Part shown: positions 3,687-5,896 of the stretch, in pieces
Position numbering within the stretch: position 1 is the stretch's first letter
Layout of the letters: each line of letters begins with the position of its first letter
Source of the DNA: a virus
Taxonomy: Duplodnaviria > Heunggongvirae > Uroviricota > Caudoviricetes
IMG/VR virus record: IMGVR_UViG_2554235297_000015
Reading direction: 5' to 3' (one strand)
DNA length: 32,474 bases
The notes under the pieces: generated by a model
The model's database searches: none
The model's input: only the letters and a program-made list of their open reading frames with translations
Told to the model about the DNA's origin: nothing
Program-made: the position numbers and the translations under genes

Positions 3687-4331
3687 ATGACGACTGAAAA
3701 TAAAGTTAAGCAATACACGAAAACTCAAGCGCCTGAAGGTTACTGGGTGGATGCCCGTGGCGTAATGACACCTGAAAGCCTTATCAAAGATATTGACCGC
3801 GACCGCGAGCAGCTGGTCGGTGAGCTTGTGGAGATGGTGATTGCTGCCTCCGCCTCACTGCGGGAACTGAAACTGCGTGCGTTTGGTGATATTCAGGCGT
3901 TTATTGACCTGTCGGCGGAGAAATACGGCGCTGTGAAAGGCGGTAAAAAAGGGAATATCACGCTTTACAGCTTTGACGGGCGTTACAAGATTCAGCGCGC
4001 CATGCAGGACCGTATCGCGTTTGATGAACGCATTCAGACCGCGAAGTCGCTGATTGATGATTGCCTGGCTGACTGGACGGAAGATGCACGCCCTGAAATT
4101 AAGGCCATCATCAGTGAGGCATTCAGCACGGACAAGGAAGGCAACATCAACACCGGTCGCGTTCTGGCCCTGCGTCGCCTCGAGATTGAGGACGAACGCT
4201 GGAATAACGCCATGTCGCTGATTGGTGAAGCCGTCCAGGTAATTGGCAGCAAAAGCTATATCCGCGTGTATGAGCGCGTCGGTGATTCTGCTGAATACCG
4301 CGCAATCCCGCTTGATATTGCAGGGGTTTAA
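3687..4331 (+). CDS. hypothetical early protein, 214 aa (possibly a DUF3164-type Mu-like prophage protein)
   Basis: Long clean ORF with GAGGT upstream of the ATG. The family assignment is from memory only. Confidence 0.6.
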   Translation: MTTENKVKQYTKTQAPEGYWVDARGVMTPESLIKDIDRDREQLVGELVEMVIAASASLRELKLRAFGDIQAFIDLSAEKYGAVKGGKKGNITLYSFDGRYKIQRAMQDRIAFDERIQTAKSLIDDCLADWTEDARPEIKAIISEAFSTDKEGNINTGRVLALRRLEIEDERWNNAMSLIGEAVQVIGSKSYIRVYERVGDSAEYRAIPLDIAGV

Positions 4332-4332
4332 C

Positions 4333-4566
4333 ATGCATCAGGATATCAAAGAGTACAGGGCTGGGAACCGTTGCGCAGCGTATTCGCTGGGCGCGTCCAG
4401 AGCAGAACAACGCGGCGATTATGCCGAAGCTGAAAAACTGTGGCGTAAGGCAGCACAAAGCCCGTGTAGTACCCTGCGCCGCATCTGGGCGGAACACCGG
4501 GCAGAGTTCTGTGCCAATGCTCACCTGAAAGGATGGAAGCCGCCTCATGAACGCGAAACGCTTTAA
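4333..4566 (+). CDS. hypothetical early protein, 77 aa
   Basis: ATG 4333 preceded by AGGGG with a 6 nt spacer, two bases after the upstream stop. The ORF-track start at 4243 overlaps the upstream gene and is less likely. Confidence 0.5.
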   Translation: MHQDIKEYRAGNRCAAYSLGASRAEQRGDYAEAEKLWRKAAQSPCSTLRRIWAEHRAEFCANAHLKGWKPPHERETL

Positions 4567-4738
4567 TCAGCTATATCCGCCAGGGACTCGCTTCATGCAC
4601 ATTGCACATCGGGCAGTGCGTGGTGGTCGGGTGGTAAAAACTGTTGCACCTGCCAGAGATTTTAAATGTGGTTGTGTGGTTGAAATTAATGTCGAGCCTT
4701 ATTTCGTTAAAGTCGAAACACTGAAAGCACCGCATTAA
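4547..4738 (+). CDS. hypothetical early protein, 63 aa
   Basis: Start overlaps the end of the upstream gene. No family recognised. Confidence 0.4.
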   Translation: MNAKRFNQLYPPGTRFMHIAHRAVRGGRVVKTVAPARDFKCGCVVEINVEPYFVKVETLKAPH

Positions 4739-4768
4739 TTTAATTTGTTTTTAATTGTTATTTAAAAC

Positions 4769-4800
4769 AGGCGTAAACCCGCAGGGGCTGGCTTACGCCT
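4769..4800 (-). terminator. stem-loop downstream of the reverse-oriented gene, putative terminator
   Basis: AGGCGTAA ... TTACGCCT inverted repeat (8 bp stem). On the - strand it is followed by an A/T-rich tract. On the + strand no T-run follows. Confidence 0.4.
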
Positions 4801-4878
4801 GAATCTGAGGAAGTTTATTTATGAATATTGCTAAGCAAAAAAAATTCGCCCGCGAAATTAATCTGACAATCGTTTGTT

Positions 4879-5097
4879 TTAATCGTCTTGCGACCAGTTC
4901 TCAATCGACAGCAGATGTTCATCCAGCGCCGCAGCCAGAACGAACTCCCCACGTTCCTGAAGGCCGTGCTGGAAGTTGCGTAATTCAGAATCCAGGGCGC
5001 TGAGGTTCAGACAGCCATTTTCTGAAAGCTGTTTAACCAGAAAGCTCCACGCAGCTTTGTTAGCAGTAATTGCTGCCGCAATTTCATCATCAATCAT
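4879..5097 (-). CDS. hypothetical acidic protein, 72 aa, reverse-oriented relative to the early operon
   Basis: The - strand ATG is preceded by AGGAG with a 7 nt spacer. A stem-loop follows the stop. It is the only convincing - strand gene in the window. Confidence 0.6.
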   Translation of the reverse strand: MIDDEIAAAITANKAAWSFLVKQLSENGCLNLSALDSELRNFQHGLQERGEFVLAAALDEHLLSIENWSQDD

Positions 5098-5131
5098 TTT
5101 TTAACTCCTGATTGGGTATGTTGGGGCAGCG

Positions 5132-5140
5132 ATTATGACA
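5132..5140 (-). promoter_or_regulatory. candidate extended -10 element (TGTCATAAT) for the reverse-oriented gene
   Basis: The - strand reads TGTCATAAT about 35 nt upstream of the - strand ATG, inside an 88 bp divergent intergenic region. Confidence 0.3.
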
Positions 5141-5185
5141 AGTGTTTTGTGGTTATAAGTTGATCAAAAACAATGAGTTACAACC

Positions 5186-5896
5186 ATGAAAGATAAATAC
5201 ATTGCCAAAATCAAAAAACTGTTACGCCTTGCCAAAGGAACATCAAGCCCGGAAGAAGCCGCTAACGCTATTGCAAAAGCCCAGGCTTATATGCGCCAGC
5301 ATGGTATCAGCGAAAACGACGCGGAATTGTTCGACATTCAGGAAGCTGCCAGCGCGGGTGCGCCGAGTGACGCCAGTACGCCGCCGCGTTATATGCACAT
5401 CCTGTGTGACCTGGTCTGTAAAGCCTTCGGTGTCGAGTGTTACATCTCCGGCGAATACCGGGCTTCTGGTTCACTTAAACGTTACGTGCGTTTTTATGGT
5501 CCTGACAGCCGCCCGGAAATCGCGGCTTACGCGTTTGATGTGCTTTCCCGTCAGATGATGGCAGAGCGCAAGAAATATCAGGATAAACACTGCAAACGTT
5601 GTGGTCCGTCCACGCGGGTAGCCCGTGGCGACCAGTTCTGCGAAGGCTGGGTCTTTGGTGCCCGTGATGTCATTGCGGTGTATGACGTCTCCCCGGAAGA
5701 AAAAAGCCGCCTTGAGCTTTACAGAAAGAACCTGCACAGCACTAAGGGACTGCGCGACGGGGATATGCGCACAGCTAAAGCGTGTCGGGGTGCAGAGTTT
5801 GCCGCTACTGCCGGTTTTATCGCCGGGAAGAACGCCAGGCTGCATCAGGGGGTTAATGGTCAGAGCAACAGACCGCTGGCACTGGGGAGGGTGTAA
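5186..5896 (+). CDS. hypothetical protein with a DUF2786-like N-terminus
   Basis: 236 aa. N-terminus KIKKLLRLAKGTSSPEEAANAIAKAQAYM resembles the DUF2786 signature common in phage proteins. Cys-rich C-terminal part (CKRCG). Confidence 0.6.
   Translation: MKDKYIAKIKKLLRLAKGTSSPEEAANAIAKAQAYMRQHGISENDAELFDIQEAASAGAPSDASTPPRYMHILCDLVCKAFGVECYISGEYRASGSLKRYVRFYGPDSRPEIAAYAFDVLSRQMMAERKKYQDKHCKRCGPSTRVARGDQFCEGWVFGARDVIAVYDVSPEEKSRLELYRKNLHSTKGLRDGDMRTAKACRGAEFAATAGFIAGKNARLHQGVNGQSNRPLALGRV

What the first reader, a model, noticed from the sequence alone, without database searches (positions are those of the whole stretch)
4769..5185. Single reverse-oriented small gene with its own expression signals inside the early operon
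The 72 aa acidic ORF at 4879..5097 on the - strand has AGGAG 7 nt upstream of its ATG, a candidate extended -10 (TGTCATAAT) about 35 nt further upstream, and a stem-loop with an A/T tract after its stop. Every other supported gene in the window is on the + strand. A convergent, independently expressed gene in a transposable-phage early region is a typical place for a factor expressed in the lysogen (exclusion, anti-defence or regulation) or for transcriptional interference with early transcription.
Basis: partly seen in the sequence, partly recalled or inferred. Interest (0 to 1): 0.7.

Follow-up and report, generated by a model that had tools for sequence, protein, structure and literature searches.

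The report
Conserved backwards gene in Mu-like prophages
The backwards-pointing 72-codon gene is real, belongs to a small uncharacterised protein family that sits in the same place and orientation in Mu-like prophages of several enterobacteria, and is an optional accessory gene whose function is still untested.

Summary
The window is the Mu-like prophage of E. coli E2348/69. The minus-strand ORF 4879..5097 is already annotated in RefSeq as a hypothetical protein (WP_000564495.1).

An exhaustive search found a small family of 16 clusters, 72-77 aa, with no Pfam, NCBIfam, PHROG or PADLOC match. It occurs in E. coli, Salmonella, Serratia and Trabulsiella. In every Mu-like context the gene lies on the strand opposite the early operon, directly upstream of the DUF2786/DUF7168 gene.

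The minus frame is under purifying selection (dN/dS 0.13-0.48). The tail of the rival + ORF 4821..5003 is not (pN >= pS), and its openness follows from the minus protein's sequence.

The Shine-Dalgarno sequence, a -10 hexamer 32-37 nt before the ATG, an invariant GATCA and a downstream hairpin are conserved. No canonical -35 or terminator is present.

The gene is dispensable. About 35 of 59 E. coli genomes carry a 169-bp deletion that removes its promoter and first 26 codons, and others lack it altogether.

The AlphaFold2 model is an acidic three-helix bundle (pLDDT 89) with no informative structural match.

Best reading: a self-contained, moron-type accessory cassette, probably expressed in the lysogen, whose product acts by binding a protein. 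The function is inferred, not shown.

The parts
4879..5097 (-). CDS of the reverse gene. It encodes 72 aa, net charge about -9, and is predicted to be a three-helix bundle. RefSeq calls it WP_000564495.1, 'hypothetical protein'.
   Evidence: Family of 16 clusters. dN/dS 0.13-0.48. AlphaFold2 with the alignment gives pLDDT 89 and pTM 0.72. GC skew turns negative across the gene.
5105..5109 (-). Shine-Dalgarno AGGAG, 7 nt before the ATG.
   Evidence: A purine-rich Shine-Dalgarno sequence sits at the same place in all homologues.
5132..5140 (-). Candidate extended -10 (TGT-CATAAT). The hexamer ends 34 nt before the ATG. There is no recognisable -35 element.
   Evidence: A -10-like hexamer ends 32-37 nt before the ATG in 7 of 7 diverged representatives, including non-Mu contexts, and nowhere else in the 90 nt upstream. 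TGn is present in 3 of 7. The consensus scan finds no full sigma-70 promoter.
5160..5167 (.). TTGATCAA palindrome holding an invariant GATCA (5162-5166), which contains a Dam site. It lies 22 nt upstream of the -10 hexamer of the reverse gene and about 20 nt upstream of the DUF2786 ATG.
   Evidence: GATCA is the only invariant internal block in the alignment of seven divergent intergenic regions. Its role was not tested.
4768..4801 (-). Conserved G+C-rich hairpin, followed on the minus strand by UGUUUUAAAU. It is the likely terminator of the reverse gene. It is also the shared left boundary of the cassettes in this slot.
   Evidence: Folding energy is -24 kcal/mol (z = -5.1) as minus RNA and -19.6 kcal/mol (z = -1.8) as plus RNA. 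It is conserved downstream of the gene in all Mu-like contexts. It is also repeated in front of other + strand cassettes. It does not fit the strict terminator pattern. The only Rfam match is a sub-threshold one.
4821..5003 (+). Early-strand 'stub' ORF of 60 aa, with Shine-Dalgarno GAGGAAG at 4807-4813. The first ~24 codons are conserved. The rest is the antisense shadow of the reverse gene.
   Evidence: The same start, phase and N-terminal motif (REI..TI..[YF].RL) occur in all Mu-like contexts. For the head, pS > pN; for the tail, pN >= pS. The openness is explained by the minus protein's sequence, P = 0.57-0.80 in 5 of 7. PGAP calls this ORF in short-form prophages.
5019..5187 (.). 169-bp segment that is deleted in the common 'short form'. 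The deletion lies between the near-repeats ACAGCCAT (5011-5018) and ACAACCAT (5180-5187). It removes the promoter, the Shine-Dalgarno sequence and codons 1-26 of the reverse gene.
   Evidence: Alignment of 25 distinct sequences. About 35 of 59 E. coli genomes carry the short form.
4739..5185 (.). Variable cargo slot between the 63-aa gene (phrog_5591) and the DUF2786/DUF7168 gene.
   Evidence: In relatives the slot is empty, or filled with + strand cassettes, or holds the reverse-gene cassette, either intact or truncated.

Best explanation
The region is a self-contained accessory ('moron'-type) cassette in a variable slot of the early region of a Mu-like prophage. It consists of one small gene on the strand opposite the early operon, with its own -10-driven promoter, its own Shine-Dalgarno sequence and a downstream hairpin.

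Shown:
- The gene is a real protein-coding gene under purifying selection.
- It belongs to a small uncharacterised family.
- It keeps its position, orientation and expression signals across Mu-like prophages of E. coli, Salmonella and Serratia.
- It is dispensable and is exchanged horizontally.

Inferred:
- The promoter does not depend on the repressed early promoter and faces it. The gene would therefore be transcribed in the lysogen and damped by converging early transcription after induction.
- The product is an acidic 72-aa three-helix bundle with no DNA-binding features. It most likely acts alone, by binding and blocking a host or phage protein, to the benefit of the lysogen (exclusion- or defence-type) or of the phage.

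The target is unknown.
For: Gene reality:
- Full-length homologues at 33-64% identity.
- pS > pN in all pairs, omega 0.13-0.48.
- Confident model from a 16-sequence alignment, pLDDT 89.
- GC-skew inversion across the gene.

Conserved architecture:
- Always reverse-oriented and divergent from the DUF2786/DUF7168 gene in the Mu-like contexts.

Own signals:
- A -10-like hexamer 32-37 nt before the ATG in 7 of 7 diverged representatives, including the two non-Mu contexts. The chance per sequence is 0.07-0.14.
- Conserved Shine-Dalgarno sequence and invariant GATCA.
- A hairpin that folds better as minus-strand RNA.

Accessory and mobile nature:
- Intact in 8, truncated in about 35 and absent in 16 of 59 E. 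coli genomes.
- The slot is empty or holds other cargo in relatives.
- Intact in 2 of 80 phage contigs that carry a DUF2786 relative.
- One variable column in 219 among long forms, while flanking genes differ by 3.9-8.7%.
- A subclade stands alone in IS-rich islands outside phages.
Against: - No expression data were found. An EPEC RNA-seq supplement could not be mapped to this gene.
- The promoter has no -35 element and fails a simple consensus scan. The terminator tail is weak.
- No match to any defence, anti-defence, phage or Pfam family, and no specific fold match. The mode of action is therefore inferred only from size, charge and context.
- Frequent loss of the gene shows that it is often not needed.
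Confidence: 0.5

Rival explanations
1. It is an anti-defence or host-takeover protein. It would be made from its own promoter immediately after DNA entry or at induction, rather than in the lysogen. One possibility is an acidic inhibitor or DNA mimic of a host restriction or defence protein.
For: The protein is small, strongly acidic and helical, stands alone, and is patchily distributed and horizontally exchanged. The promoter travels with the gene into non-phage islands.
Against: There is no neighbouring HTH (Aca-like) regulator. There is no match to known families. The orientation against the strong early operon is awkward for an early lytic function. A 72-aa three-helix bundle is small for a DNA mimic.
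Confidence: 0.2
2. The unit works mainly at the RNA or transcription level. Convergent transcription from its promoter would interfere with, or give an antisense RNA against, early transcripts entering the DUF2786-to-Mor part of the operon. The protein would be secondary.
For: The unit is convergent to the early operon and sits upstream of DUF2786, GemA and Mor. The conserved GATCA near the promoter could tie its activity to Dam methylation or replication. A conserved early-strand stub ORF is translated into the antisense region.
Against: The amino-acid sequence is under purifying selection. Family members occur outside any operon. Most related prophages do without the unit.
Confidence: 0.12
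3. It is a dedicated partner (inhibitor, antidote or modulator) of the adjacent, divergently transcribed DUF2786/DUF7168 protein.
For: It is invariably adjacent to that gene, with a divergent arrangement, in all Mu-like contexts.
Against: Short-form and empty-slot prophages keep DUF2786 without it. 66 of 80 DUF2786 loci have no trace of it. The non-Mu subclade has no DUF2786 neighbour.
Confidence: 0.08
4. The minus ORF is spurious, and the + strand ORF 4821..5003 is the real gene.
For: Within E. coli, 13 of 27 variable sites fall on + third codon positions and only 5 of 19 on minus third positions. PGAP annotates the + ORF in short-form prophages. Its Shine-Dalgarno sequence, ATG and first ~24 codons are conserved.
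Against: The E. coli signal comes from short forms, in which the minus gene is already dead. Across diverged homologues the minus frame has omega 0.13-0.48 and the + tail has pN >= pS. The most conserved minus residues (8-24) lie outside the + ORF. The + frame closes after 3-5 codons in the non-Mu members.
Confidence: 0.02

Closest known systems
Phage 'morons': accessory genes with their own promoter and terminator, inserted between conserved genes of temperate phages (concept of Hendrix and co-workers, from my own knowledge; examples are lambda bor and lom).
   Same: Present in some closely related prophages and absent in others, at one fixed junction. Carries its own promoter-like and terminator-like signals. 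Slightly lower G+C than its neighbours. Exchanged horizontally.
   Different: The protein family is unrelated to any described moron product. Expression from the prophage is not shown. The cassette also carries a conserved stub ORF on the opposite strand.
Semi-essential early region of phage Mu (kil, gam and small accessory ORFs upstream of gemA and mor; from my own knowledge of the Mu genome).
   Same: Same genomic compartment: after the transposase and MuB-type ATPase genes and before the GemA and Mor homologues. The region is rich in small dispensable genes.
   Different: From my own knowledge, the genes of that region in Mu all lie on the early strand. This one is reversed and has its own signals. 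No DNA or protein match was found in 50,697 phage records.
Lysogen-expressed exclusion genes that sit against the flow of lytic operons (lambda rexAB and sieB, P22 sieA/sieB; from my own knowledge).
   Same: A unit expressed independently of the lytic promoters, located inside a region that is silent in the lysogen. Dispensable for phage growth.
   Different: No sequence or fold similarity. The product is a soluble acidic mini-protein, not a membrane protein. No phenotype is known.
Convergent or antisense units inside phage early operons (lambda oop RNA opposite cII; the face-to-face pR/pL promoters of coliphage 186; from my own knowledge).
   Same: A promoter that fires against an incoming early transcript.
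   Different: Here the unit encodes a conserved protein that also occurs outside operons.

Membership tests
Moron-type accessory cassette | Present or absent at the same junction among closely related phage genomes. | tested here: met
   Among 59 E. coli genomes it is intact in 8, truncated in about 35 and absent in 16. Empty slot in L044 and L045, other cargo in L003, L006 and L043.
Moron-type accessory cassette | Own promoter upstream and own terminator downstream. | tested here: inconclusive
   A conserved -10 lies at a fixed distance from the ATG in 7 of 7 representatives. A conserved hairpin favours the minus RNA. However, there is no -35, the U-tract is weak, and the consensus scan gives no hit. 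The hairpin is shared with other cassettes.
Moron-type accessory cassette | Base composition differs from the flanking phage genes. | tested here: inconclusive
   G+C is 0.36-0.50 across 4700-5199, against 0.51-0.58 in the flanks. Much of the drop lies in the A+T-rich intergenic parts.
Moron-type accessory cassette | Transcribed from the repressed prophage. | not testable with these tools
   No usable transcript data. The supplement of PMC4464170 could not be mapped to this gene.
Known anti-phage defence or anti-defence protein families | Sequence match to a described family. | tested here: not met
   PADLOC gave no family for the query or for any of the 16 members. PHROGs, Pfam and NCBIfam gave only non-significant scattered hits.
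Known structural families | Specific fold match of the confident model. | tested here: not met
Toxin-antitoxin or immunity pair with the neighbouring gene | Obligate co-occurrence with a partner gene. | tested here: not met
   DUF2786 occurs without it in 66 of 80 loci. Family members occur without DUF2786.

The most novel reading that the evidence does not exclude
The cassette is a compact lysogeny-versus-lysis switch module that moves between Mu-like prophages.
- A promoter with a conserved Dam site drives a new acidic inhibitor protein in the lysogen. This protein would be an exclusion or anti-defence factor with a new fold family.
- The conserved early-strand stub ORF keeps ribosomes on the early transcript as it crosses the reversed gene. 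This would prevent Rho-dependent polarity on DUF2786, GemA and Mor after induction.
Probability: 0.15. Interest if true: 0.65.

Novelty: new member of a known kind. Interest (0 to 1): 0.4.

Why it matters
If the product has a phenotype, it would define a new small-protein family from transposable prophages of enteric pathogens (EPEC, STEC, Salmonella). It would also give a clean natural comparison, because intact, half-deleted and empty alleles sit at one junction.

The conserved stub ORF that reads into the antisense of the gene is a testable case of how an operon tolerates a reversed insert.

Otherwise this is an ordinary accessory gene of unknown function. It is already annotated as a hypothetical protein.

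Tried and rejected
- Close-relative searches for both ORFs returned only near-identical E. coli sequences. The one '60% identical' + ORF relative (P0009) is a frameshifted copy in an assembly with several broken genes.
- A codon-position count within E. coli seemed to favour the + ORF. I rejected it as decisive, because most of the variation comes from short-form remnants in which the minus gene is already dead.
- DNA and tblastn searches of the phage and plasmid collections found nothing. The one genome-contig hit is a 17-residue chance match in a Sphingomonadales MAG.
- Pfam, NCBIfam, PHROGs, PADLOC, PDB-sequence and three fold searches gave no lead. The afdb50 library was unavailable.
- Rfam returned only a sub-threshold 'Lnt RNA' hit on the hairpin, at 26.9 bits against a gathering score of 55.
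- I found no LexA-box-like sequence on reading the promoter region.
- I tested whether codon choice keeps the + frame open. It does not.
- I considered that the stub is a relic of the 5' end of DUF2786. It occupies exactly the position of the DUF2786 start in empty-slot prophages, and it shares IAK.KK and RLA..SS. The similarity is too short and too low in complexity to score.
- The literature searches found nothing on this gene, on WP_000564495, or on a reversed early gene in Mu-like phages.

Full report
**Origin and observation**

The window is 100% identical to the Mu-like prophage of enteropathogenic E. coli O127:H6 E2348/69 (NC_011601.1). This prophage splits eutC. The window starts at the Ner-like gene. 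It then runs through the transposase gene, the MuB-type ATPase gene, small early genes, a DUF3164 gene, an ANR-family gene and a 63-aa gene (phrog_5591). Next comes a 447-nt gap (4739-5185), followed by the DUF2786/DUF7168 gene.

The reported minus ORF lies in that gap:
- the ORF at 4879..5097;
- AGGAG at 5105-5109, 7 nt before the ATG;
- TGTCATAAT at 5132-5140;
- a hairpin at 4768-4801.

RefSeq already annotates the ORF as WP_000564495.1, 'hypothetical protein'. Every other CDS in the window's range is on the + strand.

**Is it a gene?**

Word-indexed searches found only near-identical E. coli proteins for both the minus ORF and the overlapping + ORF 4821..5003. The exhaustive HMMER search found full-length relatives of the minus ORF at 37-61% identity. 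A profile search widened this to 16 clusters of 72-77 aa from E. coli, Salmonella enterica, Serratia fonticola, S. odorifera and Trabulsiella. The invariant N-terminal motif is AAI.AN..AW..L...L.

Nei-Gojobori counts on nine genes give pS > pN in every pair, with dN/dS 0.13-0.48. GC skew, which is positive in the + genes, turns negative across 4800-5099. AlphaFold2 with the 16-sequence alignment gives a three-helix bundle at pLDDT 89 and pTM 0.72, against pLDDT 71.6 without the alignment.

**The rival + ORF**

Within E. coli, variable sites lean towards + third codon positions. Most of that variation, however, comes from prophages in which the minus gene is already truncated.

In every Mu-like context an early-strand ORF starts just after the hairpin, with a good Shine-Dalgarno sequence. 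It has 16-19 codons outside the minus gene, in the same phase, and then runs 125-197 nt into the antisense of that gene.
- The first 24 codons show pS > pN.
- The remainder shows pN >= pS in all nine pairs.
- Synonymous recoding of the minus genes shows that the open antisense frame is what their amino-acid sequences predict: P = 0.57-0.80 in five of seven, and 0.03 and 0.20 in the other two.
- In the non-Mu members the frame closes after 3-5 codons.

So the minus ORF is the gene. The + ORF is a conserved translation start plus a short conserved head, followed by a shadow tail.

**Context**

The gene lies on the strand opposite the early operon and directly upstream of, and divergent from, the DUF2786/DUF7168 gene in these Mu-like prophages:
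- Salmonella: L029, L035, L036;
- Serratia-type: L030, L121;
- three unnamed lineages: L031-L033, L034, L039.

A subclade (P0021-P0024) is different. There the gene stands alone in IS-rich islands, about 280-300 nt after a large ORF and with no Mu genes nearby.

**Expression signals**

In seven diverged representatives, including the two non-Mu ones, a -10-like hexamer ends 32-37 nt before the ATG and appears nowhere else in the 90 nt upstream. The hexamers are CATAAT, TAGAAT, GATAAT and AATAAT. The chance per sequence is 0.07-0.14. TGn precedes the hexamer in three of the seven. No -35 element is recognisable, and a simple consensus scan reports no promoter and no terminator.

In the Mu-like contexts an invariant GATCA lies 20-23 nt upstream of the -10. 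In the window it sits inside the palindrome TTGATCAA at 5160-5167.

The downstream hairpin is conserved in all Mu-like contexts. It folds better as minus RNA (-24 kcal/mol, z = -5.1) than as plus RNA (-19.6 kcal/mol, z = -1.8), because of a G.U pair that becomes an A.C mismatch on the other strand. The same hairpin-TGAAT-Shine-Dalgarno unit also precedes other + strand cassettes in relatives. It is therefore a shared cassette boundary as well as the probable terminator of this gene.

**Dispensability and mobility**

Among the 59 E. coli genomes that match the region:
- 8 hold the long form, from five distinct strains;
- about 35 hold a short form;
- 16 share only the hairpin region.

The short form lacks 169 bp (5019-5187), between the near-repeats ACAGCCAT and ACAACCAT. 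The deletion removes the promoter, the Shine-Dalgarno sequence and codons 1-26. Because distant lineages have the full gene in the same place, the short form is a deletion and not the ancestral state.

In other prophages the slot is empty, so the hairpin is followed directly by DUF2786 (L044, L045). In others it holds + strand cargo of phrog_7741 or phrog_2650.

In 80 IMG/VR loci with a DUF2786 relative, 2 carry an intact copy, 12 a truncated copy and 66 none. Almost all of the 66 have + ORFs packed tightly against DUF2786.

Among seven long-form sequences the gene has one variable column in 219, a mean pairwise difference of 0.13%. The flanking genes differ by 3.9-8.7%. Protein-level selection cannot remove synonymous differences. 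The likely cause is recent horizontal spread of one allele by recombination through the conserved flanks.

**Function**

From anatomy and distribution, I commit to this reading: a moron-type accessory cassette that is expressed independently of the repressed early promoter. It would therefore be on in the lysogen and opposed by converging early transcription after induction. Its acidic mini-protein would act alone, by binding a host or phage protein.

The gene, the family, the architecture, the conserved signals and the dispensability are shown. The timing of expression and the mode of action are inferred.

The rivals, in order of likelihood, are:
- an anti-defence protein made at infection;
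- a mainly transcription- or RNA-level role;
- a partner of DUF2786/DUF7168, which is contradicted by their frequent separation;
- a spurious ORF, which is rejected.

**Verdict**

The result is a new, small, uncharacterised family filling a known kind of niche. It is of moderate interest. The conserved stub ORF, the invariant Dam site and the natural allelic series make it easy to test.

Noticed in passing
window 4739-5185, and L003, L006, L007, L043, L044, L045: The junction between the 63-aa gene and the DUF2786 gene is a cargo hotspot. Each cassette, on either strand, begins with the same hairpin-TGAAT-Shine-Dalgarno unit. In L029 even the 3' end of the 63-aa gene is duplicated. This suggests cassette shuffling by recombination at a repeated boundary sequence.
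   Followed up: partly
window 4821-4892 (+): A Shine-Dalgarno sequence, an ATG and about 24 codons (motif REI..TI..[YF].RL) are conserved on the early strand in every Mu-like context. They read into the antisense of the reverse gene. The same N-terminal motif heads a 188-aa phrog_7741-like protein in L029. This may be a relic of a DUF2786 5' end, or a device to keep the early mRNA translated across the reversed gene.
   Followed up: partly
window 5162-5166: An invariant GATCA, containing a Dam methylation site, lies between the divergent starts of the reverse gene and DUF2786. It is the only invariant internal block in seven diverged intergenic regions.
   Followed up: partly
window 4879-5097 compared with 3687-4738 and 5186-5896: Among long-form prophages there is a sharp trough of diversity: a 0.13% pairwise difference in the reverse gene against 3.9-8.7% in the neighbouring genes. 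This points to recent horizontal spread of a single allele.
   Followed up: yes
L034 1325-2183: A Mu-like prophage from a Logan assembly carries T6SS Hcp and Tlde1-domain genes between the GemA/Mor region and the lysis genes.
   Followed up: no
L001 32-469 and L042 23662-24135 (outside the window): The prophage is inserted in eutC of the ethanolamine-utilisation operon, leaving two eutC pseudogene halves. eutA nearby is also truncated, next to an ISEc13 element.
   Followed up: no
L035 and L036 3662-4189: The Salmonella Mu-like prophages carry a 175-aa protein with faint sigma-70 region-4/HTH hits just after DUF2786. It is absent from the window.
   Followed up: no
L008: The assembly GCA_036681295.1 has many frameshifts in this prophage; DUF3164, DUF2786 and the stub ORF are all broken. 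The apparently '60% identical' + ORF relative (P0009) is therefore an artefact.
   Followed up: yes
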